Origin: Thraustotheca clavata
Taxonomy: Eukaryota
Reading direction: 5' to 3'
DNA: 43,190 bases
Assembly (NCBI GenBank): GCA_002081575.1
Contig: JNBS01000019.1
Span: 1 to 43,190 of the forward strand
The notes beneath the pieces are model-generated. The model was given only the letters and a program-made list of their open reading frames with translations. It made no database searches and was not told where the DNA came from. The number at the start of each line of letters is the position of its first letter. Position 1 is the first letter of the stretch. The translations under genes were made by a program, and so were the position numbers. Shown here in pieces: positions 5,084 through 42,548 of the stretch.

Positions 5084-5217
5084 GGCAATTTACAAACTAA
5101 ATCTTGTACTTAAGAGGTAAAATTCCTAAGATGATACTTGATGCATTTTGACTGAAAGTAAGAATTTGAATCTTTTTTAGGCTACCCCCGGGGGAGGGGG
5201 GTGGTTAATATCGTTAC

Positions 5218-5235
5218 TTTCAAATTTGGCGCCAA
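5218..5235. promoter_or_regulatory. E2F-like palindrome with adjacent CHR-like element
   Basis: TTTCAAA (5218-5224) followed by TTTGGCGCCAA (5225-5235), ~135 bp upstream of the ATG at 5369. Confidence 0.45.
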
Positions 5236-5368
5236 GTCCATCGATCAATTACATCTACAAGCGTCTGATCTCTTCTTTAACTCTTCTGTCAACGCTATAC
5301 AAGGTTTTCCTAAAGGTAATCTTTGCATCTATCGATCTATGTGTGTCCATCTGCGATTTAGTGACCAC

Positions 5369-7743: not shown

Positions 7744-7851
7744 CTCGAAATCAAATCATTAAGCTGTTTATAGCTACCAATTCTATTGTTCAATTTAAGC
7801 TATAAACAGCAATGTGATATTTCCACACCAAAGTGGCAATTATATCTCAAC

Positions 7852-10162: not shown

Positions 10163-12493
10163 CTAAGCCATTGTGGCATCTACAGGTGATGGCTCATCAG
10201 CCTTTGCTTCTTCAGTATTGTTTGTCAAAGTGGCTCGAGACTTTCTTAAATTCTTCTTCATCTTTTCAAAAATCTTTTGATCAGCTTTCGAGACAGACGG
10301 GAATACTGTCAAGAAAGCAGTGTTGAAATGCTTCATTTGAATGCATAAACCAGTGTCTTGATGAGTTTGATCAGCTTCACGTAAAACAGCAACACCAGCT
10401 TCTCGGACCAAAGCACTTAAATCTGCACCACTGAAGCTTTCGCAACGAGGGTCTGCAGCAATTTGCTGCAAATCCAACGATGGATCCAACTTGCATTTTT
10501 TGCTTAATGTGGTTAAAATCTAATAGTCAAGATAAGAGAAAGAAAAATGGCTTGGAATAGTACCTGGAAGCGATCAGATGCTTGTGGCAATGGTACATAG
10601 AGTAATTTATCAAGACGGCCAGGACGAAGCATAGCAGGATCAATGATATCAGGACGATTTGTTGCAGCGATGACAACTACATTCTTTCGAGTATCCAAAC
10701 CATCCATTTCAGTGAGCAATTGATTGACAACACGTTCACTGACACCATTGCCACCATCGCTCATACCACGACGTGGACAAAGAGCATCCAATTCATCAAA
10801 GAAAACAATGCAAGGAGACGATGCACGAGCACGTTCAAATACTTGACGAACAGCACGTTCAGATTCACCAACATATTTATCCAGTAGTTCAGGACCTTTG
10901 ACAGAGATAAAGTTGGCACCACTTTCATTAGCAATGGCTTTGGCCAACATAGTTTTACCACAACCAGGAGGACCATAAAGCAATACACCAGCAGGCATAG
11001 TAAGCCCCAAAGCTTCAAAGCGTTCAGGGTGCTGAAGAGGATGTAAAATGGACAAAACAAGTTCTGCTCGGACTTCGACAAGAGCACCGACATCTTTCCA
11101 AGTGACATCGGGAATAGTAGCAAAGCCTTCGCGTTTCGAACTTGGTTGTACCTTTGGCACAGCAAGTAAAAAGTCTTCCATGCAAACACTGAGAGGTTCA
11201 AGTTGTTCTTGAGTAAATGGAGCAAATGATCGAATTTCATCATTAATGGAGGCTTGCTCAGCATCAGGCTTTGGTGTATCCGTTAAAAGTGTAGTAAATA
11301 CACGATTTACAGCAAGAACAGCAGCTTCTTTGGTCAAAGACACTAGATCAGCTCCGACATAACCAGGAGTTCGACGAGCGAGGTCTTTAAAGTCGATATC
11401 TCCAGCAAGACGCATCTTTGAAGCAAGTACACATAAAATCTTTTCACGAGCTTCAGCATCAGGGATTCCAAGACAAATTTCACGGTCAAAACGACCAGCT
11501 CGACGGAGTGCTTGATCTAAATCATTGGGACGATTTGTTGCTCCGATGACAAGCACAGGTTTACCATTAGTATTTTCAAGGCTCAAAGTATCAGTACTTG
11601 TAAGTAATTGAGCCACAATACGCTTTTCCATTCCACGAGATGAATTTTCACGTTTTGGAGTAATAGCATCAATTTCATCAATGAAAATAATCGATGGAGC
11701 ATTGGCGATAGCTTGATCAAACAAATCACGAACTTTCTGTTCCGATTCTCCCGACATACCAGAAACAATTTCAGGAGCACTAACTTTAAGAAAGCATGCA
11801 CCAGATTCACCAGCAATTGCATTTGCAAGCATAGTTTTCCCCGTACCAGGTGGACCATGCAAAAGAATACCTCGAGGAGGTTCGACACCCAAGTGTGTAT
11901 AGATTTCAGGGTGAGTTAGCGGGTATTCAATAAGTTCTTGGACTTCCTTCAAGATAGCTTGAATACCACCGACATCCGAGTACCGAGTTGTTGGGCGAGA
12001 GACGATAAAGTTATCATTAGTGACTGCAGCCGATTCTGGCCGAGTTCTTTTAACTTTTTTCGGTTTATCAGGCTTGTTTTCTTCCTTTTCAGTCTTGGCA
12101 ACTTCAGCATACGCTTTTGTAATGGAATTATTAAGTAAATTAGCAGCAGGTCGTTGAGCTTCTAATGCTTGAGCTTGTTTTTCATCTTCATCATCTGAAT
12201 CACTTCGAGGACGTTTAGCACTATTTAACGCAATTAAATCCATCAACTAAATGTCAAATTCTTACCTTTCATTCTTTGGTTGATTTTTTGCAATAGCTTT
12301 TTGCACCATTTTCTTCAAAGGTCCCTAACTCTCATTTAAGCTCTCTAAATTTCAAAACAAAACAAACATGAGGTTTTCGAGCATATTCACTATACGTAGA
12401 AAGCAAATGCTGAAGCACAGTAGACTCTGTTGGCTTAATATCTTCATTTTCACGCAAGTATTTTCTTACATGGAAGTTAACTTTAGCTTCCAT
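10163..12493 (-). CDS. NVL: Nuclear VCP-like double AAA+ ATPase (NVL/Rix7), ribosome biogenesis; multi-exon
   Basis: Two AAA modules ([29 protein letters not shown]), [28 protein letters not shown] and [10 protein letters not shown] are typical of NVL. Short introns lie near 12330-12366, 12245-12285 and 10510-10562. Start taken as the ATG of MEAK. Confidence 0.92.
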
Positions 12494-12993: not shown

Positions 12994-14158
12994 ATGGCCA
13001 CGCCGATCGCTAATCTCTCAAGCTATGTCCATGCGTTGCTTAAAGACACGACAGATACGTCTGGAATGAATGCCCAACAAGTGGGAACGTACGTAATGAA
13101 CAAGTCGGATGCCTTGCTATCGATCCAGGACAACGATACGGACGTCGAAGGTTGTTTTAAATTGCTTGTCAAAGTCACTGGATCTGCCCATGCTGTTGAG
13201 CTTATTAAAAAGCTTACACAAAATCACACGAATGCTACGTTAAAGCTTCGCATGTATGTATTAGCATTGTATTGCATGGTTTTCATAGAATTTATAGTTT
13301 GGCTGATTTGTTTAATATTCTTCCTGCTCAAGACGCTCAACGTTTTAATACTTTGGTTGCTATTATCAACTATGCTGGTGCCACAAACCAAGTCAATTTG
13401 ATCAAGAGGTACTGTAAACGCTGAAAATGATTTCTGAATTTAATATTAGTTATTTCAATGATATTGATTGTGCTCTTGTGTCTGGAGTTGCTCCTGCCAA
13501 TTTGCGTAATGTTTACTTAAGCATTGCTGATTTACTTGAAAAAGATGCTGAAGGACAACAAGCTTTAGTATTCCTTGAAAAATACTTGAAATCGTTTGAA
13601 AATGAAAAAGATGTGACTCCAGCTAATCCAGTAGCTATTCGTGCTGCCCTTGCTGTCATTAAGAATCCTATTGAAAGCTTTGTGGCCCACATTGATCTTA
13701 TCAATCTTAAAGCAGTTGCTCAACTCAAAGGTGCCAACAAACTTTACGATTTACTTGACATTTTCACGTCCAAGACACTTGCTGATTACTTGGCATTTGA
13801 AAAAGCTAATACTGCCACTTTTAAAGAAAATGCTCTTGACAGCAATACTTGTGTTAGCTATATGCGTTTGTTAACACTTTGCTCATACCCAACGGGTCAA
13901 GAAGCTATTGCATACTCTTCAATTGAACAAACACTCCAAGTCAAAGAAGATCAAGTTGAACAATGGGTTGTTAGAGCTATCACTGCCAATTTGATTTCTG
14001 CTAAGATTGATCAACTTGGTAAATCTGTAGTTATCACCCGTTCCCTTCAACGTGGATTTGGTGCTGCAGAATGGAAAGTTTTGCATGCTAAATTGCTTTC
14101 TTACAAGGCTAATGTTGGTAGTCTTCTTGAGACTATTCGACAAGCACGTCTACAGTAA
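12994..14158 (+). CDS. eIF3m: Eukaryotic translation initiation factor 3 subunit M (PCI domain); 3 exons
   Basis: Spliced LRILADLFNILP..RFNTLVAII; C-terminal PCI motif MRLLTLCS...IAYSSIEQTLQV..DQVEQWVVRAITANLISAKIDQ...RGFGAAEWKVL. Introns near 13253-13296 and 13409-13449. Confidence 0.88.
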
Positions 14159-16054: not shown

Positions 16055-17163
16055 CTATGATACTATTAGCTGTTGTGTTAAGAATATTATACCTTTGGAC
16101 TGTAGTTTTTCATATAGAGTTGCTGATTGATACATAATTGTTGGATAAAACGTAGGGATAGTTGGTGTTGTCGGTAGTACACTTGGCAAATAATAGCACC
16201 AATCAACAACATATTTTCCAACATCATAAATGGCACTGGATTTGAACTTCTTATAGACACTGCCTGAACTTGTTTGTTCATCACATGGAATCATTTGGTT
16301 TACAAGTGTATTGATACTACGTTTCTTTCGTAAAACACCATGTTCATCCATAAAAAATTTCGAGTTTGGCTTCATGGCTTCATCAATATGTGCAGATGCA
16401 AAGATTTTAGTATAATCGGAATATTCATACGACGAAACTATAGGTGGCTAATAACATGTTAAATATTTGACATAATCAGTGACATACTGTTTGGGTTTGA
16501 GTTTTCAGTGACAAAAGCTTGCTTTCCAACACTGCTTTGTCTTGACGAAGTGTATGTAATTCATGGTGTATTTGTCGTACCTAAAAGCTTAAATTCATTC
16601 TTCTATACATGTAAGCAGCATACAGTTGAATAATTTAAAGTCACTTTGACATGAATTCGTCCATTAGATTGACGAGAAGGTGATGTCAAATCACACCATT
16701 TCTCAACAGTACTTTGATGTAATAGCTCTTCAAATGGTATTGTTGCGTGTCCAAGTACATTATCCGATCCAAATCGTACAGCATGTAAAACCTCAAAGTA
16801 TATCGTTGCATTTAAAGACAAAATTGAATGAATTCGAAGTGTTTCATGCCATTGGGGAAGTCTTAAACGTTGTCTTCTAGTCCATACTGTGCTTGCATTC
16901 TTACATACAGTACAAGGAATTAAACTCGCTCGTACATATCCCAATCCAGTTCCAAAGATTGTCATGGATTCGTCAAGAATTCCTTCTCCAGAGCAGATTT
17001 CCAAGGTCAATGTCGCCTGACTCTCACCCAACCCATTCATATCAATACCTGTAGCCATATCCAAGCGTTCAGTCTCCATTGCATTCACTAATTTGCCTTC
17101 AAGAATGATCTGACGCTGCCGTAGCGCCACGATCTGTTGTTTAAGTCTCTCCTCCATTGTCAT
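16055..17163 (-). CDS. C2-domain protein with N-terminal coiled coil; multi-exon
   Basis: TLEICSGEGI...YVRASL...PQWHETLRI...IYFEVL...DNVLGHATIPFEELLHQSTVEKWCDL...GRIHVKVTL is a C2 fold pattern. Short introns near 16582-16622 and 16442-16486 link to the 16055 exon. Confidence 0.8.
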
Positions 17164-17186
17164 TTGAAAACTGTCAGATCCCAAGC

Positions 17187-17375
17187 ATTTGATTGGTTAG
17201 ATATGGCCAATCATGAACTGCAATCTAGTACATTTAAAAGTATTTGATTGGTTAGATAGGACCAATCATAAGTGCAATCTATCTCAGAGAAATAAATTTG
17301 ATTGGATAGATAGGACTAATCAAAAGAGCAATTTATCATGAAAGAAGTATTTGATTGGTTAGATCTGACCAATCA
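17187..17375. repeat. Four-copy tandem array of a 27 bp palindromic CCAAT unit (period 53-55 bp)
   Basis: ATTTGATTGG-(T/A)TAGAT...-CCAATCA begins at 17187, 17242, 17296 and 17349 (third copy has CTAATCA). Intervening segments of 26-28 bp share GCAAT(C/T)TA. Confidence 0.9.
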
Positions 17376-17531: not shown

Positions 17532-19331
17532 CTATGCTGGATTGGAAGCAAGTTCCTGTGCATGCTTGGCGCAAAAGCCGTTCCGTTGGGCCCATTTTTT
17601 ACATTGAGGAAATTCACATCGTTTGCCACCACCATGGCCACGGCAAAATCCACCCGATTGACAACTCTTTGTACATCCTTCAAATTTGCAACGAACACCA
17701 CCACCATGTTGTTTGCAAAGACCTCGAGATTGTGCAGTTTTTGGACAACCTTCCATACGACAAGGTTTACCACCACCATGAGCAATGCATAAATGACCCG
17801 TTTGAGCACTCTTCATACAGCCTTCCACTTTGCACCTGCGACCACCTCCATGGACTTTGCACATGCCCTTCGTTCGGGCAATATTGTTGCAACCAGGAGA
17901 CATACAAAATTTTGCATAAGCTGCAGGGGGAGCACCAGCTACAGCAGCTTGGACTTCAGCTTGAAATTTTTGTTCATAATGTGGTGCAGCTTGAGCTGCA
18001 GGTGGTGGATACGATGATGGATGATAAGGATGAAGATTATGTTGTTGAGCAGCAGCAGCTTGAAAAGCAAGGCTGTTTTGATAAAGTTGTTGTTGGTACA
18101 TATGTGGTCCATTATTATAATAGCCCCCTGCTTGTGGTGGCATCGAATATCCTTGCATCGATGGATGATGGGACATATGAGGTAATGGTTGCTGTTGATG
18201 TAGCTGCTGTTGACGATAATTATCATGATAAATGTGCATTCCTTGATGGTGTTGTTGTGTTTGTTGTTGTTGCTGGGTTGGATGCATCATGGTGGGATAT
18301 TGTTGATCAATTGGTTGACGAGAGTTGGGTTGACCACGTAAATTTTGAGAATTATGTTGAGGTTGTCCCAACGAACTCATAGCACTCATTGTAACAGCGT
18401 GTTGTTGTAAATTACGATCGTAATTGGCACTTGGTTGATTTACTTGAGGGTATTGTTGTTGTTGATGATGATTATTTGTGTTATTTTGCTGAGCAGGAGG
18501 TGGACGAATAGGTTGACCAAGTTGCTGCGATTGTTGTTGTTGCTGCTGTTGTTGTTGTGTAGGAGCTTGTCCAGCTTTTTCACGTGGTGGGTACGTTGTA
18601 GGTTGTACAATCTTGTCATCAAGCAAATTGTCAAGATTATCGACCGATACAACGTATTCATTTTCATCATCTTCTTGTGCTTCTTCTGCAGCATATTTCG
18701 CAACGTCACTTTCGATGGACTCAAGACAGTTGGCCAACGTTTGAAAACGGAAGCTATCTTGCGAAGTCATGGGACGTTGAATAGCTGAATTGGATGTAGC
18801 ATTCAATATGCCTTGGAGTACATCAAAACTTTTTTTTCGTGTCATTCCATCAGCATGCATAATAAACGATTTAAACATATTGGAGCTTGATAGTCGTTTA
18901 AGTTCTTCTGCAGGGATTTCATCACCAAGGCTTCTTAATAATTCTGTAGCTTCCGTTCGACTAATTCCTCCAGGTGCTTGATTTTCCAATAAACCAAGTA
19001 ATGCACTCACACTAGCCTTCTTTTCATTCATTGAAAAATTCTGCGAACTTAATAATCGTTTAAGTTTTGTAGCACTTTCTTTGACATTGAATTTACGTTC
19101 TTGATTCGGATATGTTGATTGTTGGGAATGAACTAATTGTTCAAGTTTGATATCATTCGCAACAGTATCATCCCCCGACACTAAAGAACGTAATTTCATC
19201 CACGATTCTTTACGTTCCATTGAAAATGAAGAAACATCAACACAATCCATCATATCTCGTAATAATTGTGCATTCACAGGCACTTCTTGGCTTGGTTCAC
19301 GGCGGCTTCCTCCTTGCTGGCCTTGCATCAT
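17532..19331 (-). CDS. Gln-rich protein with C-terminal Cys/HGGG zinc-binding repeats (often annotated WRKY19-like)
   Basis: 599 aa ORF. Five C-x3/4-C-x-K-x-A/C...G-x-C-x-x-H(GGG) repeats at the C-terminus, poly-Q tracts at ~18240-18560, and no WRKYGQK motif. Confidence 0.88.
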   Translation of the reverse strand: MMQGQQGGSRREPSQEVPVNAQLLRDMMDCVDVSSFSMERKESWMKLRSLVSGDDTVANDIKLEQLVHSQQSTYPNQERKFNVKESATKLKRLLSSQNFSMNEKKASVSALLGLLENQAPGGISRTEATELLRSLGDEIPAEELKRLSSSNMFKSFIMHADGMTRKKSFDVLQGILNATSNSAIQRPMTSQDSFRFQTLANCLESIESDVAKYAAEEAQEDDENEYVVSVDNLDNLLDDKIVQPTTYPPREKAGQAPTQQQQQQQQQSQQLGQPIRPPPAQQNNTNNHHQQQQYPQVNQPSANYDRNLQQHAVTMSAMSSLGQPQHNSQNLRGQPNSRQPIDQQYPTMMHPTQQQQQTQQHHQGMHIYHDNYRQQQLHQQQPLPHMSHHPSMQGYSMPPQAGGYYNNGPHMYQQQLYQNSLAFQAAAAQQHNLHPYHPSSYPPPAAQAAPHYEQKFQAEVQAAVAGAPPAAYAKFCMSPGCNNIARTKGMCKVHGGGRRCKVEGCMKSAQTGHLCIAHGGGKPCRMEGCPKTAQSRGLCKQHGGGVRCKFEGCTKSCQSGGFCRGHGGGKRCEFPQCKKWAQRNGFCAKHAQELASNPA

Positions 19332-19971
19332 GAAGAAAGTGTCTCAAATTCCACACTGAGGCTCTCGTAGCCAATTCAACAATTTCATTTAAAATTTGTA
19401 TACTGTCGTTTAAATTAGCCTTTTTGGGACAAGTCCCCACTCTCTCATTTTATTGGTTTAATTCAAACCAAACCAGATCTGATTGGCTACAGATTAAACT
19501 TGCAATTTGTATACTACCAATTGCGACAGAATACGAGACATGTACTTCCAGTCAACAGTATATTGCGACATGGGGACGTTCACCTTTTCTGAAAGGAAAA
19601 TGCTACGCTAGGTAAAGCTAGTTGAAGTAGATATATCAAATATAGAGATTTTGATGATCTTTACAATGAAAGAAAGCAAGGAAATCAAGTAGAGACAAGA
19701 TAATAAAGATATACATGTTTGATTGGACAAACGTAATGCGGATCCCCCTCTTTTAAACGGACTTTATCAAATATGAGCTTGGAAGAATGTTGGTCAATCC
19801 TTGCCCATAGATTTCTCGCTTTGGAATGACTGGTTCTGATCGGAAATCATCGAAGATGGAAATCTTCATGTCAATGGAAATGAATGTGATCTTATGATGT
19901 ATATTATCTGGGACAGATTATCTCGACACTCATCGCATGGACCAAACTGAAGACCATGGGACATGGCGATC

Positions 19972-29237: not shown

Positions 29238-30736
29238 ATGAGCAACGTGGTGCAATTGACCCCTGACGGCGGTGTGAAGAAGGAAATCCTCAAGGAAGGA
29301 GCTGGTGAATTTGCTCCTGCTGGTTACGAGATTCGAGGTGCGTTGTGTATGCATCTTTGCATTTTCACGTTGATCGGTGGAGGCTAAGTTGATTTTTTGT
29401 AGCTCATTATACTGGTACATTGTTGGACGGCTCAAAATTTGATTCTTCGCGCGATCGTGGTCAAGTATTTACATTCGTTCTTGGCAAAGGCAATGTTATT
29501 AAAGCTTGGGACTTGGCTTTTGCTAGTATGAAGATTGGTGAACGTGCTATGTTGACGTGTGCCCCTGAATATGCTTATGGAGCTAGTGGTAGTCCACCAA
29601 AAATTCCTCCAAATGCTACACTTCAATTTGATATTGAATTGCTTGGATTTGCACCAAAGAAGAAAGAAATGTGGGAAATGTCAGTTGTTGAAAAACTTGC
29701 TGAAGCTGAAGCAATTAAACAAGAAGGCACTACTGCATTTAAATCAGGAGCATTTAATGAAGCTCATGAAAAGTATTTGGAAGGTGCCAAGTATTGCGAA
29801 GAAGATTTTGAAGCTACAGATGAACAAAAAGAACAAATGAAAGAAGCTCAAACCGTGTTGTATTTGAACGCTGCTATGTCGAGCCTCAAGACAAAAAATT
29901 ACACTGCAGCCGCATCTGCAGCATCAAAAGCTTTGAAGAATGACAAGCAAAATGTCAAAGCTCTTTTCCGCCATGGTGTAGCTTTGATGTATTTAAATGA
30001 TTTGGATCGTGCCAAGGAAGATTTAATGGCCGCTGCCAAGTTAGATCCACAAAATCGTGATATTCGTCGTGAAATTGTTGTGCTTAAGCAAAAGATGGAA
30101 GAAAACAAGAAGGCTCAAAAGAGTGTCTTTGGTGGACTCTTTGGCAAGGTTTCCATGTACGATGACAAGGCTGAACTCCAGAAGGAAGTTTCCATTGAAG
30201 AAGTTTCGAGTGCAAGCAATCCAAAGACGTTCTTTGACATTACAATCGGTGGAGCTCCTGCTGGACGAATTACTATGGAACTTTTCTCTAATATTGTGCC
30301 AAAGACTGCTGAAAACTTTCGTGCACTCTGTACTGGTGAAAAGGGTAATGCTTCCACAGGTCAACCGCTTCATTACAAAGGCTGCTCGTTCCACCGTGTT
30401 ATCAAGAATTTTATGCTTCAAGGTGGCGACTTTACTCGCCACAATGGCACGGGTGGTGAATCGATTTATGGCGAAAAGTTTGCCGATGAAAACTTTGTTT
30501 TGAAACACTCTGACCCAGGGCTTTTGTCTATGGCTAATGCTGGCCCTGGTACAAATGGCTCGCAGTTCTTCATTACCACGGTCACAACACCTCATTTGGA
30601 TGGTAAACATGTTGTGTTTGGCCGTGTAATTGAAGGCATGGATATTGTCAAGAAGATTGAAGCACTAGAGACTGACAAGGGCGATCAACCAGTGTCACCT
30701 GTAATCATTGCTGACTGTGGCGTTCTCCCTCCGTAA
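29238..30736 (+). CDS. Dual-family immunophilin FCBP: FKBP + TPR + cyclophilin
   Basis: Exon 1 [21 protein letters not shown], intron 29338-29402, then [19 protein letters not shown]...[26 protein letters not shown] (FKBP), three TPRs (KALFRHG), and [16 protein letters not shown]...[19 protein letters not shown] (cyclophilin). Confidence 0.95.
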
Positions 30737-30812: not shown

Positions 30813-33800
30813 TTAACTATTAGTTGTTTGATCTAGCAAAACCTTGGCCGTCACAGGCTCAACTGGTGCTGGGGCTTTATTTGCAGTCAAACGACGCTTT
30901 CCTTTAACATCTTCATCAACTGCATCAAAATCGTCAGCATAATCATTTTCTTGATCCTCGTCAATTTCAGAAGCAATCGATTTGGCTGCAATAAGCTTTT
31001 TAACTTGAGGTTCTGTCAAGTCTTCAATGGATGCTTGTCTACTTTCTAGCTCCTTTGGTTTAGCTGGTGGCTTTGGTTGAATTGGAGGTGTGGGTTGAGT
31101 TACAAATGTAGGCACTGGTTTCGACTCCTCAATCAGTTTACTTGGTGGATTCCTGTGCTTTGTCATCCATTGTGTTAGCTGCTGCATGATATCGTTCTGA
31201 TTGTCATCAGTGTACTCTACTCAATTTATTAGAGTTGTGCATTTTTGAGTTTATACCTTTGCCAAAAGCAAGGTTATAAAGCGTGTGAAGCTCATTACGA
31301 TTTGGCGTACTCGTTGATGGCCTTGATGGAGATTCTAATAGTTCATTATGATGATCATTTAGTTTTTCTTGTAGGTACCACTGGATGAAAGTCGAAGTAA
31401 GCTTTGATACTTTTCTAATTGTTCTTGTAACTCGGCTAATTCATCTTCTTTACTGTTCATTCGATCCGTGACCCAAACTAGTACAAATGACGACTATACA
31501 ACACAAAATTGCCTACCATAGCCATCTCGAATACGCTCAATTTCTTGGTCTTTTTCAGTGTTTTCAAAGAAGAGAATTTCTTCTTTTTGTCGAGCCGAGT
31601 CTCTTTCTTCAGTCACAACTTGGAGCTGTAGTGTAAGTTCTTCTTCTTGTTCCTCTAGAGCTTTCTTTTCTTTTTGTAGAATTTCAATACAACTTGTCGT
31701 CTCAACTAATTTCAATTCAAGTTGTTTGAGTTTTTCTTCTGCTGCAGCATATTTTGTCTCGAGTCGATCATTATCTGCTTTTAGCCTCACTTGTGTAGTT
31801 TGTACAGCAAAATATCTCTTTTCAGCTTCACTAGCTTCATCTTGTAATCTCTTGATTTCTTCATTGGCATTATCACTCATACGCTTTTTCGTTGTTTCCC
31901 TAATCCAGATGAGCTCTATCCATTTTGATAGCTAATATACAATTCCGATTGTAGAGTTGACACTGTGGCTACAGCTTTTTGTAATTGACTATCTAATTCT
32001 GAACGCTGGTTTATAGCTTCTTGATAAAGAGTTTGGGTTGATGTTTGTTGTTTTTGTAGCTCTTCAATTTGAGATTTAAACGTAGCCTCAATTGACTCGA
32101 GTTGACGATCTTTGGATGTACAATCAAGCTTTAATTCTTTGAGTTGATGCATGATATTATCTTTTTCAGATTGAGACTCTGCAAGTGCTTTATCTGATCG
32201 CTGAACATGGCGTTTGCATTCATCGAGTTGAATTGTTACTGATTGTAATTCTGCTGATAAACTTGCCATACGTGAATCTGTAGCTCCTTCTAATGCACAT
32301 TTGGAAGTGAGTTGAGCTCGTAAATTTTCACCAAGTTTTTCCAACTCTTCTTTGGACTAGACAACTTTCAATATGTGTAAGATTATAATGCTAAATACCT
32401 GAATCATAGATGTTAATTGAGCTTCAAGTTGAGCATGTTGTTGTTTCCATGAAGCATTTTGTCTTGTAAGTTCTGATGCTTGGGATGTTAATGCATCAAT
32501 ATTCGTTTTAGCTTTTTTAAGTTGATCATCTGTAGCTTTAACTTGAGCAGTGACTGACTCAACTTGTGCATTGCTTGCTTGTAAACGTGTATCTGTCTCA
32601 AGTTTATCTGCTTTCCACTTTTCAATCAATTTATTTGCACTTTCGAGCTCTGCCTTAAGAGCTAAAGTTTGTGCTTTCCATGAATCAATCTATTGAAATA
32701 GATAACTTTGAGCCATCTATACTTAATACCTCTTGTACAAGATTGTTAAGAGCAGTTTGTTTTTCACGTTGACTATCTTTTGCTTGTTTCCACTTAGCTT
32801 TAGCTTCATCAAGCACGAGTTCACCAGCTGAAAACAATTTTGTTAAGAGCCCAAGATAGTCGAGTATTTCAGCTTGTACATCTTCTAATATAGAGTCTGT
32901 TTGGCCTGTAGCATAACCAGTGACTTCAAGACGTAAAGCAGGAGCTAATTGATATTTGGTTGGTATCAATTTGATATGTCTTGCAATTGACATTGATGGT
33001 AACTTTGTTATTACAATGGAGTTGACATCAGTGTTACCCTGAAAAGTATTTGATAATGGTGTCCATGTTTCTCCATCAAGACTTAATTCAATTTGATATT
33101 CTGTAATCCAAGCATCCTGTTGAGCTTGTGGTGAAGTTGTAGTCAATGGTACTTCAGATGTATCGGGTAAAGTATCAGCTAGAAATCGCACTGCACCAAG
33201 GCAAAACAGTTCAAGTAAAATCATAGTTTGTTCTGGTTCTTTGCCAGCAAGAATATTTGCATCAGTAGCTTTAACTTGGACGATTCCTTGAAAACTACAT
33301 TGTAATTAGCTTTATGGGTCTATTTACTTTACCTTGTCTGAACTAGTTGAATCACTTTGATTAAATATTCGGATTTGTCTTTCTTCTCTGGCATTTGAGC
33401 ATAGTCTTTTTCTTTGTCAGTAAAAAGAGTTTGACCATAGCCTGTGTTGGCTATGACAAGTGTAATTACATCATGAAGAAATCGCACTGGTGGTCGACTA
33501 AATAGTTTTACTGGTACTTGATTTGACTTGAGCAATTTAAACCATGACATGACATTTCTATTCAAACATTAGCTTGAAAATGTATGAATAAACATACTTG
33601 GCAATGTCATAGGTTTGATTGTGATCTCCAGTGACCATTTCAGGTTTGAATTGTTCAGCAACTTTTTTCATTTGAGGCTTTGTTAAATCAAGAGGTGCTT
33701 CCTCGGCTACGATACCACCAACAATACCACCTTGTGTAGAAAGAGAGTCAATACACCGAGGTTTTTCTAAATCAATTTTGATCCATGAAGAACCTTCATC

Positions 33801-36193
33801 AGAAGTTGGTGTCCAGCACGAATTACTGTTTAGTCGAGCTGCCTTTGGGTCACCAGATGAAGCTGTAAATTTGTCATCACTAATAATTTTCTTTTCAATT
33901 CCAAATGCAAATAATTCACCCTTTGGTGTAAACTCAGGTTTAAGAGCACTTGGTTTCGGTGCTTCAATGTTAGCACATTTTTCCAATGCGCAAAGTAATG
34001 ATTTTAAAGCCAAAGCGCGAGCTTTTGTACGATCTTCATCCATTTGAGGACTATCAGCTTGAGACTGTAGCTCTGAAGTCATAAGCTTTGTTGCATCATT
34101 AAACTACAATCAGGTTAGTTAGTTGTCAGTATAGTTTCTTTACATTAAATATGCGCCTTCTTTCCGATTTAAGAGTTATCACCAACGAGGTTTTGTAGTT
34201 TTGAACCATAGTTAATGTGATGTTCAAAGCTTTATCTCGATCGTCATATAGCAATTTACTTTCTTTAGTCGGTGTAGTTGATAAAGTACTACTCCAGGCA
34301 TTGTGTAAATTATCAATTTCATTGCTAATCGTGTCACTTAAGGTATTGGTTTGCCGTATTAATTCACTTTCCAATGCCATCATCTTAGCACTTTCTTCTT
34401 GAATGTTTTTGATTTTCGTACAAAGTTGATTTGCTGCTACATGCACTGACGAAGCATCAATATCATCGTTTGTTTTCCAAGCAGATACGTCTTTATCCAG
34501 AGAATCTTTAAAGACACAAATAAGTGTGCGAGCATCTTTAACATCTTGTTCTAATGCTTTGGCTTTTGCTGCCATTGAAATCCAGGAATCTTCACCAATT
34601 TCAAGCTCTCGTGTAGCTCGAATTGCCAATTCAATATCAGCTTTAGCTTCCAAGAGTTTCCATTTCTTAATCTTTTCATCTTGTGTTTTTTGGTCTGCTC
34701 GAGCTTTTTCTTTAGCTAGTTTCTTGCGTTCCAATTCATGTTGTTTACTTAATTTGGCTTTATCTTCCCATGTTTGCATACGAACTGCATCCATTTCTTG
34801 AATTTGCTTTTCAAATCGAGCAATCATTTCATTTTTTTCAAGTGGGTCAACGCTTGTGCTTTGTTGCTCCATAAGCCTCTTCTTTAAAGCTGCTATTTCT
34901 TCATTTAGTTGCGAGATTTGACTTGCTTCTTCATTCTTTTTAGCATTCACCTTAATAGATTTCGCTCGACTAGCATATTTAAGAGTGCCCAATGTTTCAA
35001 TAAAGTTGATATTTGCTGGAGATAGAGTTGCAAGCATAGAGCAAAGACTATTACCACCAAGAGATTCCTATGTTCATATTAACAGTGTTTCCATGTAGAT
35101 TTCTATACTTGGAGTACACGAGTTAATTTTGAGTTGCGATATGGAATAAATGATTTTTTTCCAGTACGTGCATCTTCAACAAGAGCATTAATAACATTTC
35201 CTAAAGCACTAAGAGATTTGTTGATATTGGCTCCTTCTTTAAGTCGAGTGCCAACAGCACCAGTTCCAGCAGCACGTTCCGAACCAGCAAGATCAACAAG
35301 ATTTACTTTAGCAAAAACGTTCTTGCTTTCATCCAACGAGTCTTTCTGATGAATCTTAATAACAAAAATTGAATGGGATCGGGAACTTTCAGAGTTCATA
35401 TTTGTATAGCCGACAGTGCGATTTTGTTGTCCTTGAGTCATTAAGTCAAGAACTTCTTCTCTTGACTCAACAACACGTTCTTGGAGGTCTTTTACATAGA
35501 TTCCTAACACACTATGCTCTTTAATTTCTAAGCCCTTGTTCTTTTTATCTTTTGAAGCACTATGTATGATAAAAGAATTTAATCAATTGAATTGGATACC
35601 TTGAATCGAGCAAATCATATATAATTTCATTGTAAATTTCAAAGAAAGAACACTCAACAAGAAATAGCTTATTTGGATTGTTTGTTTTTTCAGCCTAATT
35701 AAGATTACTTTGGCTTAAGACAATTCATGACTTACATAAACATGATCAAATAATGCTTTGTTCATTCTTGGAATCAAACCTTCAAGTTCTTCATGACCAG
35801 CAACACCAGTCATACTAAAAGTCTTTCCACTGCCAGTTTGTCCATAAGCAAATATTGTGCCATTATATCCTCCAAATGCTCGTTGCAATACGGGCTGACC
35901 AAAATCAACAAATACTTTTTGCTGTGCCGTGTCTATACCATAGACAAAATCAAACCCAAATCTAAATTCACCATCAATATTCATGAGTGATATTCACATT
36001 TACTCATGAACATCATCTTTGTTTTCGGGATTTGTCAACACTGCATTACCATTTTTGCACTAATAAAAATCATAATTCCAAGCAAACATGAAACACATAC
36101 CAAAAAGCACGATTCAGCTTGTTCTGCTATTTCTTTTTTGCTCATCGGACGACATCGTACAGCTACACGAATGTTTTCAGCGGACTCTGACAT
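30813..36193 (-). CDS. N-terminal kinesin motor with coiled coil, split F5/8 type C (discoidin) domain, inserted IFT54/TRAF3IP1-type CH domain and long coiled-coil tail; many exons
   Basis: MSESAENIRVAVRCRP, GQTGSGKT, NSESSRSH, DLAGSER, IPYRNSKLT and ETLGTLKYASRAK. ~40 nt GT-AG introns join the ORF pieces from the motor through the tail in frame. The stop may instead be at 30749 if a last intron (30779-30842) is spliced. Confidence 0.9.
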
Positions 36194-36376
36194 CGCCGCT
36201 AAATTTTGTATCTAAACTATGCTGACGCCTGTTCACTGAATTCGTGTTCTTATTGGTCCAAGGGCAATCTTTTTCTCGTATACAATTGGTCCATTTCATA
36301 ACGACCGCACATTGGATTGGTTGAAAAATGTGATACGTTCATGATGATTGGCTGGAAAATTAGTCAAATCACAGAT
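36194..36376. promoter_or_regulatory. Compact bidirectional promoter with five CCAAT (ATTGG) boxes
   Basis: 183 bp between divergent ATGs. ATTGG at ~36252, 36285, 36311, 36316 and 36347. Confidence 0.55.
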
Positions 36377-37019
36377 ATGACACAACGTGTGCAAGATGCT
36401 GAGACTGGTAGGAAATCTATGATACATGCAATTCTTAGTGTTCTTAAGGTGAATGGCTTGAGATAGAAGCTCCATTGAACATTGATAGAGCTGTGATGAA
36501 GTGCAATTATGCAGCTGCAGGTATGTATTCACCAAACAAGTTAGAAAAGGGTGAAATTCATTGTGAAACACAATCTACACGTGCTTTGGGAGGGCAAATT
36601 AACTGGGGAAAGCGTATGAACGCAATGCGAGCAGTATGTAAATGTTATTTCATGTAGATGAATATCTAGTACTATAGAATTATGAACGTAAAGCTCGGGA
36701 ATCATTACGTGGTCTTGAAGAACAAATGCAGGATCCATCATTAACTAAAGAAAAAGGTCGTGAATTGCAAGTTAAAATACTCGATAAAGTTAAATTGCAA
36801 TTGAAGACTCAATTATCACAACTTGTTACTGAAGAAATGACACGAGAAGCTGAAAGACAAGAATTGTATGCAGCTCAAGTATCTGAACATGAACGTAAAC
36901 GAATGCATGAAAAACATACTCGAGAGAGAGAATACTACAAGACACTTATTGAACATTCGAAAGAAGAAAATAATATGCTGTTGACGGCACTGATGGAAAA
37001 ATATAATTTTCTTCGTTAA
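36377..37019 (+). CDS. Hypothetical protein with C-terminal charged coiled coil; 3 exons
   Basis: MTQRVQDAETG|EWLEIEAPLNIDRAVMKC...MNAMRA|NYERKARESL...EEMTREAERQELY...HTREREYY... joined by two short GT-AG introns. Confidence 0.7.
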
Positions 37020-37069: not shown

Positions 37070-37596
37070 ATGGTGGACGATCTACAGTCTTCTGAAGAGG
37101 TAAATGTTATCTATTTCATGTGATTGAATTTAGTAGCTAGCATTTGTTGCCGAAGAAGTCGATCGGATTATTTTACAGGTAAATACATTTCCTTATAACT
37201 CGATTGAAAATGATTAGACTGTCGATTACATCCTTCGAGATCAAACGTATGATGATAATAATGTTGCACATTGGGTTGACTCGATATGTGATGGAATCAT
37301 GAAAGGTTTGGGTGAACTTCGCAAACCTCTCAAGTATATTGGTCTTATCTCTTCATTATAATTCTGCTCATTAAACCAATAGTGAGCTGCATCATCATGC
37401 AAAAGAATGGTGCTGGTGTTCACTCTGCAGTATCATGCCATTGGGATACTGCTATTGATGGTTCCTTGTTTGTTTATTAGGTTGAATGATCATATTGAGT
37501 GTAGGTGCTCATGTTGTCAAGTGGCCTAGCGATAAACACAAAGATCATAGTCGTACGATGTATTGTATAGTCACTGTGGGTGGTCTTGGTTTTTAG
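37070..37596 (+). CDS. DYNLT1: Dynein light chain Tctex-1 family; 5 exons (missed by the ORF track)
   Basis: Spliced [92 protein letters not shown]...KW...[26 protein letters not shown] and WD...DG are the family signature. Confidence 0.92.
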
Positions 37597-37668: not shown

Positions 37669-40600
37669 ATGTCGGCACTGTTGTTAGCATGGCTTAATGG
37701 CGAAATTAAGCTTGAAAGATCAATTCAATCTCTTGAAAAAGACTTGAGCAATGGCTATTTACTTGGTCAATTGCTCATTCATCTTGGAATTGATCAAGAC
37801 TCTTCTTATAATGACACTGACGTTGTATCAAGTGTACTTGCTAACTTTGAACAACTCGCAACATCCCTTCGTCATGCTGATATAACTTTGCCTGTGGAGC
37901 TTGTACGAGGAATAATGATGGAGAAGAAAGGAGCTGTAGCCAAGGTCTATAGCTTGGTATAAATTAAGTTAATCTTGCTTGTAGCTTTTAATTCAAATTA
38001 AAAATTATGTCGATCGAAAGCAAAGCAAACCTCATCATCTAGAGCCATCAACAGCCTCGTTAAGACCACCACCAGCAGGAAAGAGTCGTCACATGCCACA
38101 TATTGAACCAGCAGTAAGTTTACTATTATGGCTATATACTCAATAGTTTCTAGGATGCAAAAGAACGATTTGTGGATAATCTTATCAGTACAATTGATCC
38201 TTCTGACTGGAACAACCACAATCGAGTTGACATGGCAATTCACTTGCGTAAATTTTCCGAGTTTATGTGGAATACTGAAGAAAACACAGCTAACGTTGTT
38301 TATTTTAATCAAGTAGACTCATTTATGTATTAGTTCTTTGCAAATGAAAAAGAAAAACAATTGAATCAAAAACAACAACAACGAAGTTCAGAGCTCACCC
38401 ACACCCATGAAAAGCAAAGTTTTTTAAAACAATGGACTGACAAAGGCCTTGAAGAATGGACTGCTAACCAAGTACTATATTAGTCAATAGTGCTCAAATC
38501 AATTATCAATAGAAACATAAATGCAATCGAGAAGCAGAAGAATTGCAATTTGAACTTAGTTTAAGAGAAAGGCGTCGTGTAATTGTAGCTCACCAAAACG
38601 ATGCTGCTGCTATGGATTTGGCTGATGGTGTATCATCATTTGATAAGAATTTCAAACGTCTTGGAATTAGCAATGGAGATGATGATAATCCTCAAAGATT
38701 AACCCCAATTCAAGGCACTGGACTTGAGCATCTTGTCGAGTTAGAACGCCGAGTGGAAGCATGTCATTTTCGACCATCAAGTAACATTCAAATGATGAAA
38801 GAACTACGAGAAAAGCGTAAAATGCACTTGAATGCTCAACGAGAACGAGCTAGTCGTCGTCGTAAAATGCTTGTTGATCAAACAAGAAATACCATTCAGG
38901 TTAAGATGAATTCTATTCATTTATGCTTAGTGTAGCTTTTAGGTCAACCGAAAGCAAGAAGAGACTGAATTATTACATCGTCTTGTTGTTGTTGGAAAGC
39001 GTCGACGAGAATCTCTAGCTCAATTGTGGGAAGCTCGCCACCAGCATAATAAAGCTAAAGAAGAAACTAATACTACGTTGGTGGTAAAAAAAGACAAATT
39101 TGTAGGGGAACTCGAAGATGCTGTAGCTACAAGTTTACAAGCTCTACATGAACAAGTTATGGCTCCTGAAATTGTAGCTAAACGTGAAGAAATACTTCGT
39201 GTTGCCCAAGAAGAAAATCGTGCTCACAATGAACGCAAACACTTGGCACATACAGTATTATGTACAAGTGTACTAAATATGTTTCTTGACTTTGTCCATG
39301 TCATCATATCCATTCGGTAAGCAATATTGACAACATTTAAACCATAACTTTATGTAGTGAAAAGGAGCAACAACCACTACAACCATCAGTGTATAGAGCT
39401 CTCAAACAACAATTTATCTCTGGCGAAATTTATGGCCAGCATCACAAGGGTAAACCTGTACCTACCGAGTTTAGTACAACCGAATTACACTTCTTGGTCC
39501 GTGATTACCTTCAGTGTCGAGGACCATTTACTGTGCCGGGATTAAGCAAATCAATTGAATGTGAACAATCTACAATTGTGAACAATAATTGCTTTATAGA
39601 TGCTAATTGTATATTTGATAGATCACACAAACTTTACACCGCCTTGCTACAATGCCTGAAGAAGAGCTTTTAAACACTAGCTGGCCAGCAATTGAACCTT
39701 TACAGCACCCATACTTAATTTGTTGGTACGCCAAAGACAGCAAAAGTATACTTGCATCGACCATGGCATTAGCTTGGCGAATGCAACTGATTACAATTGA
39801 AATGTGTATTGATCGATGCACTAAACAAAGTGAACGTGGCAAACCTATTGCAGGTGAAAAACCATCACCACTCGAAGTACTTTAAATTGGTTCATTTTCT
39901 TGTAATCATTAAATACTTAGGTGGAAATGGCTGCTTTAGCCACCAAAGCAGCCCAAGCTAAGGCAAAAACAGGTCATATTGCTGATAATATGGTGTCAGA
40001 CATGGTATGCAAAGCCGTTCTTCATATTTTTCTTTCAAGTCAACAAGATCCAAGTTTTTTAGGTCTTGTTTTAGTAAACTACCCACGGTAAACAGTAATA
40101 TAAAAAGCATGTCTAATTCATAAAATTTTTAGGACTAAAGATGAAGCCAAACAATTTGAAATTGAAATGATTAAACATCTTACAGAACTCTCTGATACTG
40201 AAGCTAGTGCTCGATTGACTCAGCTTATGGCTGGCATTGAAGATAAACCAGATACACCACGACCTCAATCAAGTATAGATTGGGTTATTTTTGTAGACAC
40301 TCCAACACAACTTTTGATTGAAAACGATGATAAAAAAGATGAAATGATCTCTCGTTGTGAAGCTTGGACATCAACAGCATCTTCATTGCAAGCTTTTTGG
40401 AAGCCATTTGGATGTGTTTTCACGGTAAGTATAAAACACATTTAGCTGCTTTAACTTTGTATATTCAGGTTGGTATAAATGATCCTACCGATTATGCCAT
40501 TAAAGAATCATTAAATGCACTTATACGTCAACCACCTTTGCAATCTCATTTGCTTCAAACCACTGATTCCATTGCTTTTACCGAGCTTCTGAATCATACT

Positions 40601-42437
40601 AAACAAATACGCCGTCAATCTATGCCTCGAGATGAATTGTTAATATGCAGACATCTTTGTGGTGAATTAAAATTACCCAAAATCACGATTCACGAACTAG
40701 ATCAAGATTTACGTATAAATGTATTCTCCTTTTATAGTTATACCAATGCTAATGTTTCTTAGGACATTGATGTAATTGCGACTCGTCGAATGAATATAAT
40801 GCACATTTTTTATGAGGGCATTTTCCAAATCTCTCATATTGTTGTGTCATTTCGACGAAAGCTTTTAGAATTACTAAGTGGAAATCAATCCCAACAATCT
40901 CAAATCAATCAAGCCCTCCACAAACTTCATCACTTGAATAAAACCAACTCAAAGCAATATCAACTCGCTTCTAAGGTAAGTTCTATCTCTTATAAGGAGT
41001 TGATTGTTATTGTAGCAAATTATTATGGGACTCGAAGTAAGCTTAGGTGATATTGTAGATGATCTCAGAAAATGTGCAAATGAATTTATTCACACTGATG
41101 CATCATGGCCTTTAGCTGTGGATGAGTATATTGAACAGCTTAAAACATGGGCTAAAACTTTTATTGAAATTGAAAAGCAGTATTACCATCGACGAAAATT
41201 GCATTTTGAGACGTATTATACTGTGGTGGAACCAACTCCAAGCAACTCTCGAGTTCAACCACGTTCACCAGAACTAAAAGCTGCTTTTATTGAGATTTCA
41301 ACAACTTCATCATTAAACCAATTTCTTGGAAATCTTGTAGCCGAAATACTTGGAGATGATGATCCCCAAGAAGATAATGAACGGAACCAAGTTCTTGGAG
41401 TGGAACTTGATACATTTCTTCAGCATGTGATTGTTATTGTCAAATTCATTGACAAGCTTATTGACACCATTATGCCCCTAAAAGAAAGAGAGTTTGAGAG
41501 CTTTGAATTGATCATTATGGAGAATGTACAGCAAGAATTTCATTTTATTCAAAAAGTTATTTCATGTATTCCAAGTCATGTCATTAATAATGACTGGACA
41601 AATGTGCTTTGGCCTCGAGTACAATCTCTTTTGACACCACTGGATGGACATGGAATTTGTATTGCTCAACATTATAATTTCATTACAATTCCAGCATTGC
41701 ATCGACTAATAAGTACTTTGAAAGCAGTAGCAGCTCAAGCTACAACAATTCCATTGTCAACTTTTATCCAAGTTAATATTGAACTTGCTACTAAAGAACA
41801 ATGGCCTACAATTTGGACATCATTTACTGCTATTTCCAATGCTGGTTTGGCTTTTTGTTGTATGAATCATAAACAAGTGGAATGGCAAAGATTAGTTTTA
41901 TCCATTATGACAGCTCAATATTTACCATTACCTCGCTCTCATGACCTTGAAAAAATTCAATTGCATTTTAAATCACAGTATGGTAATATCGATTTAGATG
42001 CATTTTGGACTGATCGAGATGAGTTTATGAAAATTCCAATGTGGTTTAATGACTTGAAAGATGCCAAAGCATTGAAAGAACTTTTATATGATGTTTTTTC
42101 AAAAGATGATGGTCGAATTGTAGTTGCTGATTTTTTACTTTATGAGTGTATTTCTACATACCCACTTGACATTATACAAGTGTACCATAACAATATGGCT
42201 TCTTTTTCAAGAGGATTAGGAAAAGCATATAAATTACTTTACCATTGGAATGAACAATACGAATGGAATACAGCAAAAACAGAGCTTCTATGTAAATTTG
42301 CAGGTGTTCCTATTATACCAAATTTGAATGGTACTGATGAGGAAAATTTTCTTGAAGCTTGTGCATCTGAAATACCTTGTCTTGCAAATAAGTTTATCTT
42401 GTACAATTTTTACGACTATCTTGTCGAGAACTTGTAA
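37669..42437 (+). CDS. SPEF2: SPEF2/CPC1-like central-pair flagellar protein (N-terminal CH, coiled coil, degenerate adenylate kinase-like domain, C-terminal EF-hand-like region); many exons
   Basis: MSALLLAWLNGEIKLERSIQSLEKDLSNGYLLGQLL matches the SPEF2 N-terminus. Also RERASRRRKMLVDQ, the AK-like GLVLVNYPR|TKDEAKQFE, and VEWQRLVLS...LPLP near the C-terminus. ORF pieces are linked by short introns. Confidence 0.8.
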
Positions 42438-42548
42438 TAGATTAGCCATAAAGGAATGAGAAATAATATTTGTACTTGTCATAATATTACTACTCAGATT
42501 GGATCGAACTAGGATAATTATTAGTAAAAGTAATAATGAAAATTGTAC

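What the first reader, a model, noticed from the sequence alone, without database searches (positions are those of the whole stretch)
32915..36193. Kinesin carrying an IFT54-type tubulin-binding CH domain nested inside a discoidin domain
Seen: downstream of the motor and coiled coil is the first half of an F5/8 type C domain (FGIEKKIISDDKFTASS..AARLN...CWTP....WIKIDLEKPRCIDSLSTQGG, ~33727-33910). Then comes KLFSRPPVRFLHDVITLVIANTGYGQTLFTDKE...KKDKSEYLIKVIQLV...ANILAGKEPEQTMILL (~33210-33545). Then the second half of the F5/8 domain resumes (WITEYQIELSLDGETW...FQGNTDVNSIV...ARHIKLIP...ALRLEVTG, ~32915-33120). All parts splice in frame with the motor. Known: the middle block matches the N-terminal CH domain of IFT54/TRAF3IP1/MIP-T3 (KPPFRYLHDI..TGF..AG.EPE.T..LL), which binds tubulin and engages IFT motors; F5/8 C domains bind glycans or phospholipids. 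Inference: a motor with its own second tubulin or IFT-type binding site and a possible membrane-binding module, perhaps a zoospore flagellar transport or microtubule cross-linking motor. I do not know of this architecture being characterised.
Basis: partly seen in the sequence, partly recalled or inferred. Interest (0 to 1): 0.88.

Follow-up and report, generated by a model that had tools for sequence, protein, structure and literature searches.

The report
Kinesin with nested cilium-type binding domain
A water-mould gene encodes a microtubule motor whose middle carries a copy of the tubulin-binding domain of the cilium-building protein IFT54, inserted into a loop of a discoidin domain; related motors in other water moulds and dinoflagellates share this nesting, which likely gives a flagellum-associated motor a second grip on tubulin or on acidic partner tails.

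Summary
One 15-exon gene (36193 to 30813, minus strand) encodes a kinesin motor, a helical stalk, a split F5/8 (discoidin) domain with an IFT54-type CH domain inserted, about 450 residues of further coiled coil and a tail. The finding's range omits the last ~615 residues. In AlphaFold models the two halves close into one neuropilin-b1-like sandwich (Z 23.3, 143 of 154 residues, rmsd 1.8 A) and the insert matches IFT54 CH (Z 15.4). The nesting is in 42 of 48 hits of the orthologue search and in dinoflagellate orthologues, so it is old. The CH keeps the two lysines most conserved among IFT54-type domains. The discoidin lacks its membrane spikes and is lost in some lineages, so membrane binding is unlikely; it is more likely a pedestal. 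The motors form their own clade outside crown kinesin-2 and kinesin-3. New here: a conserved Tyr-acidic-Phe tail motif (40 of 82 family proteins, 0 of 93 other kinesins). A 2010 supplement lists the P. sojae orthologue as 'KISc-FA58C, Kinesin-2'; I found no description of the CH or the nesting. Function is inferred, not shown.

The parts
30813..36193 (-). Whole gene, 15 exons, about 1603 aa from the ATG at 36193 (deposited model starts at 36145, 1587 aa; residue numbers below follow the deposited model)
   Evidence: Unique GT-AG splice solution reproducing P0001; N-terminus compared with orthologues
34954..36193 (-). N-terminal kinesin motor with intact P-loop (35843-35820), switch I (35396-35373) and switch II (35294-35277)
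   Evidence: Pfam PF00225 E 7.9e-106; motif coordinates
34591..34953 (-). Neck and first coiled coil, resembling the kinesin-3 NC-CC1 segment; no FHA domain follows
   Evidence: phmmer extends to residue 408 against KIF13B 6a20 and 399 against KIF1A 8utn; side-by-side necks; no FHA hit
33924..34590 (-). Stalk (aa 451-659), inferred helical, moderately conserved
   Evidence: Alignment and identity by region
33720..33923 (-). F5/8 type C (discoidin) domain, N-terminal half (aa 660-727), spike 1 shortened
   Evidence: Pfam; neuropilin alignments; model and structure search
33180..33638 (-). IFT54/MIP-T3-type CH domain (aa 755-881), interrupted by two introns, inserted in the spike 3 loop; basic residues equivalent to K66 and K69 lie within 33391-33374
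   Evidence: Pfam PF10243 E 3.5e-22; alignment to 5fmu and 5fmt; model 104-230 against 5fmt, Z 15.4, rmsd 2.3, 119 of 132 aligned
32904..33116 (-). F5/8 type C domain, C-terminal half (aa 903-973)
   Evidence: Pfam E 3.3e-12; factor VIII and neuropilin alignments; structure search
31386..32900 (-).
   Evidence: Coiled-coil-type Pfam hits; composition; identity by region; own HMM hits in distant orthologues
30924..30941 (-). Conserved acidic tail motif Y-[ADES]-[DE]-[DE]{1,2}-F-[DE] (aa 1546-1551) in a proline-rich, probably disordered tail
   Evidence: 40 of 82 family proteins, 0 of 93 control kinesins, shuffled mean 0.025

Best explanation
This is a single kinesin with an intact N-terminal motor and an IFT54-type CH domain nested in a discoidin domain, and it likely works as a plus-end-directed, dimeric motor of the flagellar apparatus whose CH domain would give it a second, ATP-independent grip on tubulin or microtubules, with the discoidin likely serving as a pedestal rather than a lipid or sugar binder. 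Shown: gene structure, domain order, conservation in oomycetes, pelagophytes and dinoflagellates, and the retained basic patch. Predicted by modelling: the two halves close into one sandwich. Inferred: because the discoidin starts and ends at the stalk and the CH replaces a ligand-end loop, the CH is held away from the stalk, where it could carry tubulin dimers or hold a second microtubule for sliding or cross-linking. The conserved end of the coiled coil and the acidic tail motif likely bind cargo or fold back onto the basic CH to keep the motor off until loaded.
For: One open frame over 15 exons. Model pLDDT 90.9; residues 10-322 align to 143 of 154 residues of neuropilin-1 b1 at rmsd 1.8 (Z 23.3) and 104-230 to CrIFT54 CH (Z 15.4). 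Same nest in P0081, which clusters at 90% with Crypthecodinium cohnii proteins: pLDDT 93.4, pTM 0.89, Z 24.5 and 14.3. Nest in 42 of 48 hits by my own HMMs. The CH is better conserved than the discoidin halves (43-81% against 11-55% and 19-50% identity in 17 oomycete comparisons). K66 and K69 positions are basic in 44 of 44 and 44 of 44 oomycete CH domains, and 22 of 23 and 23 of 23 others. The KKK64/66/69EEE mutant abolishes tubulin binding in mouse IFT54 (PMC4818760 section 9), and Chlamydomonas IFT54, which binds tubulin, also lacks K64. The 36 named hits are Saprolegniales, Pythium, Lagenidium, Phytophthora, Nothophytophthora, Plasmopara halstedii and Albugo; none is named Hyaloperonospora, Peronospora or Bremia. 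P. halstedii was the only zoospore-forming downy mildew in PMC6264045. P. infestans keeps separate FLA8, FLA10, KAP and FAP116/IFT54 genes, so this motor is an addition to standard IFT.
Against: No binding, localisation or expression data for this protein. The patch is altered: K64 is basic in 2 of 65 family CH domains against 77 of 109 free IFT54-type domains, and R94 in 0 of 68 against 87 of 91. The IFT54 CH is dispensable for ciliogenesis (PMC10320715) and also binds WDR60, so tubulin need not be the ligand. Absence from non-flagellate downy mildews had no positive control, and 12 of the 48 hits are unnamed. The exact motor signature was found for this family in only two of the genomes in the 2010 alignment (P. 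sojae, Aureococcus), so many flagellates seem to lack it. P0079 keeps motor, neck and tail but has neither CH nor discoidin. The oomycete model has pTM 0.59, so the CH-discoidin angle is not fixed there.
Confidence: 0.5

Rival explanations
1. The CH domain is mainly a reader of short acidic peptides, as IFT54 CH is for WDR60 residues 375-394. It binds the kinesin's own Tyr-acidic-Phe tail (fold-back autoinhibition) or dynein-2/WDR60, while the tail could dock on IFT54 of the IFT train.
For: IFT54 CH binds WDR60 directly (pull-down; PMC10987677 section 12; PMC10110421 passages). The family has a conserved acidic tail motif, 40 of 82 against 0 of 93 controls, and a conserved basic patch on the CH. 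From recall only, not from any call: the WDR60 segment holds a similar Tyr-acidic-Phe motif.
Against: The WDR60 sequence could not be retrieved, so the motif match is unverified. The motif persists in P0079 and P0122, which have no CH, so it does not depend on the protein's own CH.
Confidence: 0.25
2. The motor is a cytoplasmic organelle or membrane transporter, kinesin-3-like, using the discoidin for phospholipid or glycan binding and the CH as a processivity aid.
For: Best PDB sequence matches are KIF13B and KIF1A, extending through the NC-CC1 neck. The family falls on the kinesin-3 side of a 95/96 branch. The fold is closest to factor V/VIII C2 and neuropilin b domains.
Against: Membrane insertion in factor V C2 uses spikes 1-3 (PMC11098723 passages). 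Here spike 1 is 5-6 residues shorter than in neuropilin and factor VIII, and the loop after the TQG strand (spike 3, by recalled numbering) is replaced by a 142-274-residue insert. The discoidin is degenerate in Albugo and absent in at least 7 CH-bearing orthologues. No FHA, PH or CAP-Gly domain.
Confidence: 0.12
3. The motor organises flagellar root or cortical microtubule bundles (static cross-linking or sliding during zoospore cleavage) rather than moving cargo along the axoneme.
For: Two microtubule-type sites on one long protein suit cross-linking; IFT54/20 co-pellets with microtubules. The distribution is patchy among flagellates, unlike core IFT.
Against: No localisation data; the CH is the cilium-associated IFT54 type.
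Confidence: 0.1
4. Annotation artefact: separate motor, IFT54-like and discoidin genes joined by gene prediction.
For: No transcript of this species was seen. A few Phytophthora models lack all or part of the module (P0028, P0044, P0047).
Against: Unique canonical splice solution with uniform 38-44 nt introns; same order in 42 of 48 hits; transcriptome-derived dinoflagellate proteins P0217, P0218 and P0091 carry motor and nest in one chain; the halves are complementary and fold together.
Confidence: 0.02

Closest known systems
IFT54 / TRAF3IP1 / MIP-T3 N-terminal CH domain (PF10243; 5fmt, 5fmu)
   Same: Same fold (Z 15.4, 34% identity over 119 residues); R18, K25, K29, R33, K66 and K69 positions basic.
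   Different: Internal rather than N-terminal; nested in a discoidin and fused to a motor; K64 and R94 positions not basic; no IFT54 linker or IFT20-binding coiled coil detected (Pfam shows no such hit).
Physo_158263 in Wickstead, Gull and Richards 2010 (PMC2867816), filed as 'Kinesin-2' without subfamily, architecture KISc-FA58C
   Same: It is the P. sojae orthologue: its motor sequence matches P0040 by eye. Auran_54329 is the Aureococcus orthologue, listed as KISc only.
   Different: The table row names no CH domain, nesting or tail motif; 'MIP-T3' was not found in the main text or the 11 supplementary files searched (file 10 is cut short in storage).
Heterotrimeric kinesin-2 (FLA10/FLA8/KAP; KIF3) and OSM-3/KIF17
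   Same: N-terminal motor of the kinesin-2/3 neighbourhood; probable link to flagella.
   Different: Outside the crown kinesin-2 clade (100/99); different neck; about 1600 aa; coexists with FLA8, FLA10 and KAP in P. infestans.
Kinesin-3 (KIF1A, KIF13B)
   Same: Best sequence match in the PDB; NC-CC1-like neck with the TWE motif.
   Different: No FHA, PH or CAP-Gly; outside the kinesin-3 clade.
F5/8 type C / discoidin domains (neuropilin b1, factor V/VIII C2, DDR)
   Same: Same beta-sandwich, rmsd 1.6-2.0 A over about 140-150 residues.
   Different: Part of a motor with no signal peptide evident in the sequence; split by a whole inserted domain; spike 1 shortened and spike 3 replaced.

Membership tests
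Kinesin superfamily (N-terminal motor) | Complete motor with P-loop, switch I and switch II | tested here: met
   PF00225 7-327 of 327, E 7.9e-106; motifs located
Kinesin superfamily (N-terminal motor) | ATP-driven plus-end motility | not testable with these tools
   Inferred from motor position and intact motifs
Crown kinesin-2 (KIF3/FLA10/FLA8/OSM-3) | Motor nests inside the canonical kinesin-2 clade | tested here: not met
   Nine kinesin-2 rows (one identified as OSM-3-like) form a 100/99 clade without the 20 family rows
Kinesin-2 in the broad sense of the 2010 phylogeny | Family is sister to crown kinesin-2 | tested here: inconclusive
   The free tree puts it on the kinesin-3 side (95/96), but AU tests do not reject family plus kinesin-2 (p 0.12) or the broader grouping (p 0.20); the outgroups were long branches
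Crown kinesin-2 (KIF3/FLA10/FLA8/OSM-3) | Heterodimer with KAP binding | not tested
   No partner sequences were on hand
Kinesin-3 | FHA domain after NC-CC1 | tested here: not met
   No FHA hit in P0001 or in 42 scanned hits of the representative search; FHA found in control kinesin-3 rows
Kinesin-3 | Motor nests inside the kinesin-3 clade | tested here: not met
   Kinesin-3 clade 91/97 and family clade 98/95 are separate; family 100/100 against these outgroups
IFT54-type CH domain (PF10243) | Profile score above cut-off and CH fold like 5fmt | tested here: met
   78.9 bits against 23.4; Z 15.4, rmsd 2.3, 119 aligned
IFT54-type CH domain (PF10243) | Tubulin-binding triad K64/K66/K69 | tested here: inconclusive
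   K66 and K69 kept; K64 is Pro here and basic in 2 of 65 family domains; Chlamydomonas IFT54 also lacks K64
IFT54-type CH domain (PF10243) | Binds tubulin or WDR60 | not testable with these tools
IFT54 protein (IFT-B2 subunit) | N-terminal CH, linker and IFT20-binding C-terminal coiled coil | tested here: not met
   The CH is internal and the protein is a kinesin; P. infestans has a separate FAP116 gene
F5/8 type C (discoidin) domain | Complete beta-sandwich | tested here: met
   Predicted models: 143 of 154 and 151 of 154 residues aligned to neuropilin-1 b1
Phospholipid-binding discoidin C2 domains (factor V/VIII, lactadherin) | Hydrophobic spikes 1 and 3 available for membrane insertion | tested here: not met
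   Spike 1 region 5-6 residues shorter and the following loop replaced by the CH insert; spike roles from PMC11098723; loop numbering partly recalled

The most novel reading that the evidence does not exclude
An unnamed kinesin family of stramenopiles and dinoflagellates carries both halves of an IFT tethering system in one chain: an IFT54-type CH held out on a discoidin pedestal and a WDR60-like acidic tail motif. The pair would switch the motor off by folding back, and on opening let it dock on IFT trains or dynein-2 and haul tubulin in the flagella of these lineages.
Probability: 0.25. Interest if true: 0.82.

Novelty: new variant of a known kind. Interest (0 to 1): 0.62.

Why it matters
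It defines a distinct kinesin clade shared by oomycetes, pelagophytes and dinoflagellates, with a domain-in-domain insertion that probably predates their split. Why IFT54 has a tubulin-binding CH that is dispensable for building cilia is an open question. A motor that has kept this domain with K66 and K69 nearly invariant is a natural test of what the domain binds. It is also a candidate zoospore-specific motor in oomycetes, and a case of a discoidin fold reused as a scaffold inside the cell.

Tried and rejected
No whole genome is held for this window, so this species' own IFT54 and kinesin-2 genes were not checked. No RNA holder was listed. The complex prediction of the CH with the tail peptide gave no verdict (score 0.02, alignments not used, peptide fold uncertain) and is not counted either way. 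The WDR60 segment could not be confirmed by PDB searches, supplement searches (file 5 of PMC10987677 not searched) or a text search. Pfam has no family for the tail motif. The ESM Atlas gave only generic F5/8 clusters below 0.8 for the module and unnamed clusters at about 0.9 for the C-terminal part: leads only. Metagenome scans: nothing with the single exon; with the alignment, 80 of 129 loci were kept, all with CH domains only and no motor, neck or discoidin hit. The nest was not seen in any non-kinesin protein among the 13 hits, but that search covered only proteins of 872-2778 aa. Recent exon shuffling was rejected: the two introns in the module lie inside the CH, none at its borders. The P. 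infestans gene number was not obtained, so it could not be looked up in the flagellar gene list of PMC3471859; the supplements of PMC6264045 held none of the accessions. Three papers on IFT54 were not held. Co-location with Tctex-1 and SPEF2 genes is not used as evidence, since flagellar genes were reported not to cluster in P. infestans.
Full report
Gene and observation. The minus strand from 36193 to 30813 holds one gene. A search with one exon returned a deposited 1587-aa kinesin of Thraustotheca clavata from a contig of the window's length (P0001). A script mapped it onto the window with one solution: 15 exons and 14 GT-AG introns of 38-44 nt. The ATG at 36193 is 16 codons upstream of the deposited start, in frame, and restores the N-terminus seen in orthologues. 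Pfam finds the motor (E 7.9e-106), MIP-T3 (E 3.5e-22) and F5_F8_type_C in two stretches (E 2.3e-18).

The nest. The two discoidin pieces match complementary halves of neuropilin-1 b1, residues 6-74 and 74-151 of 1kex. AlphaFold2 on aa 652-975 with 36 sequences gave pLDDT 90.9 and pTM 0.59. VIA-align matched model residues 10-322 to 143 of 154 residues of neuropilin-1 b1 (Z 23.3, rmsd 1.8) and 104-230 to Chlamydomonas IFT54 CH (Z 15.4, rmsd 2.3, 119 of 132); Foldseek agreed on the discoidin. The module of P0081, in a 90% cluster with Crypthecodinium cohnii proteins, gave pLDDT 93.4, pTM 0.89, Z 24.5 and Z 14.3 against the same two targets. These are predictions, not solved structures.

Distribution. 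A search with the neck and stalk gave 48 proteins. My own HMMs found both halves and the CH in order in 42 of 48; three had the CH without both halves and three had no CH. The 36 named hits come from Saprolegniales, Pythium, Lagenidium, Phytophthora, Nothophytophthora, Plasmopara halstedii and Albugo laibachii. None is named Hyaloperonospora, Peronospora or Bremia, but 12 hits are unnamed and no control was run. PMC6264045 (passages) reports P. halstedii as the only zoospore-forming downy mildew it analysed and kinesin domains as depleted in the others. A profile search of 1.84 billion representatives (best 150 listed) added 35 more distant family members that I examined: 7 with the full nest by HMM, 6 with the CH and one half, 11 with the CH only (5 of these show discoidin remnants by eye) and 11 without CH, mostly short or partial. 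The C. cohnii and G. smaydae records are transcriptome-derived by their source names and hold motor and nest in one chain. On a 36-row motor tree, discoidin presence needs 5 changes. Since the insertion site is the same in oomycetes and dinoflagellates, one gain with several losses is the simplest reading (inference).

Motor family. Best PDB matches are KIF13B and KIF1A, through the neck, and the neck resembles kinesin-3 NC-CC1, but there is no FHA. In a 53-row IQ-TREE chosen from 140 motor rows, 20 family motors form a clade (98/95) apart from kinesin-2 (100/99) and kinesin-3 (91/97), on the kinesin-3 side of a 95/96 branch. Reference groups were identified by Pfam architecture and one PDB search. 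AU tests do not reject a sister relation to kinesin-2 (p 0.12 and 0.20). Wickstead et al. 2010 (PMC2867816; abstract, passages and supplement rows seen) list the P. sojae orthologue Physo_158263 as Kinesin-2 without subfamily, architecture KISc-FA58C. In their alignment an exact motor signature occurs five times: this protein, the Aureococcus orthologue, and three unrelated motors. P. infestans keeps FLA8, FLA10, KAP and FAP116 separately (PMC3471859 supplement rows).

The CH. In mouse IFT54 the triple mutant of K64, K66 and K69 abolishes tubulin binding, while single mutants of R18, K25, K29, R33 or R94 do not (PMC4818760 section 9). Aligned to 5fmu, this protein has K, K, R, R at 18, 25, 29, 33, then P, K, K at 64, 66, 69 and N at 94. 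Across the family K66 is basic in 66 of 67, K69 in 67 of 67, K64 in 2 of 65 and R94 in 0 of 68 (near-duplicate cluster members left out, gaps not counted). In free IFT54-type domains from 80 metagenome loci the figures are 109 of 109, 109 of 109, 77 of 109 and 87 of 91. The core of the patch is kept and its edge has changed. The IFT54 CH also binds WDR60 residues 375-394 and is dispensable for ciliogenesis (PMC10110421 and PMC10320715 passages, PMC10987677 section 12).

The discoidin. Factor V C2 enters membranes through spikes 1-3 (PMC11098723 passages). Here the spike 1 region lacks 5-6 residues relative to neuropilin and factor VIII, and the loop after the TQG strand is replaced by an insert of 142-274 residues in the 11 proteins measured; calling that loop spike 3 rests partly on recall. 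The halves are less conserved than the CH, eroded in Albugo and absent in P0051, P0075, P0077, P0078, P0085, P0090 and P0099. A structural role fits better than lipid or glycan binding (inference).

The tail. The last 86 residues of the coiled coil are strongly conserved and detected in distant members. Beyond it, a Y-[ADES]-[DE]-[DE]{1,2}-F-[DE] motif lies in the last 250 residues of 40 of 82 family proteins; many of the rest are truncated models. It occurs in 0 of 93 control kinesins (family-like fragments were left out of the controls) and shuffling gives a mean of 0.025. I recall a similar motif in the IFT54-binding segment of WDR60 but could not confirm it with any call.

Mechanism. Most likely a dimeric plus-end motor tied to the flagellar apparatus, with a CH on a discoidin pedestal as a second tubulin or microtubule site, and a distal coiled coil and acidic tail for cargo or fold-back control (0.5). 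Rivals: CH as an acidic-peptide reader (0.25), membrane-cargo motor (0.12), root-microtubule cross-linker (0.1), artefact (0.02). The architecture itself is nearly certain.

Novelty. Ten text searches turned up no paper describing a kinesin with a MIP-T3 CH or this nesting, judged from listings and the passages read; subscription journals and unseen supplements may hold one. Two earlier notes of this scan report IFT54-type CH domains fused to membrane proteins in marine protists (unchecked), which suggests a mobile module and tempers the surprise of the fusion. Verdict: real, a new variant of a known kind, interest 0.62.

Noticed in passing
window 37070-37550 (+) and 37670-42440 (+): A Tctex-1 family dynein light chain gene and a SPEF2-like gene (CH_2 and SPEF2_C hits) lie just upstream of the kinesin on the opposite strand; synteny in other oomycetes was not checked.
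   Followed up: partly
window 36340-37019 (+): A small multi-exon gene starts about 150 bases from the kinesin start codon, head to head; its longest exon has no Pfam hit.
   Followed up: no
window 29393-30736 (+): An intronless FKBP-TPR-cyclophilin fusion ends 77 bases from the kinesin stop codon.
   Followed up: no
window 10513-12246 (-), 13418-14158 (+), 17532-19343 (-), 5162-6208 (+), 6286-7755 (-), 16603-17196 (-): Other genes by Pfam: a double AAA ATPase, an eIF3m-like PCI protein, a WRKY19-type zinc-finger repeat protein, a Myb protein, an LRR protein and a C2-domain protein.
   Followed up: no
P0110, P0112, P0117, P0120, P0124, P0131, P0133: A group of ~700-aa kinesins with a similar neck but no FHA, including one from Pygsuia biforma, lies outside crown kinesin-2 and kinesin-3 in my trees; probably the other unassigned 'Kinesin-2' rows of the 2010 phylogeny.
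   Followed up: partly
L001-L080: 29 of 80 metagenome loci gave two or three separate IFT54-type CH hits; these may be multi-CH proteins or exons of one domain.
   Followed up: no
P0028, P0044, P0047: Phytophthora cinnamomi and P. kernoviae models lack all or most of the module while keeping the motor and terminal coiled coil; real loss or annotation error is not settled.
   Followed up: no
P0208: A kinesin-3 with FHA fused to a secretin-family 7TM receptor domain; possibly a real fusion or a gene-model join.
   Followed up: no
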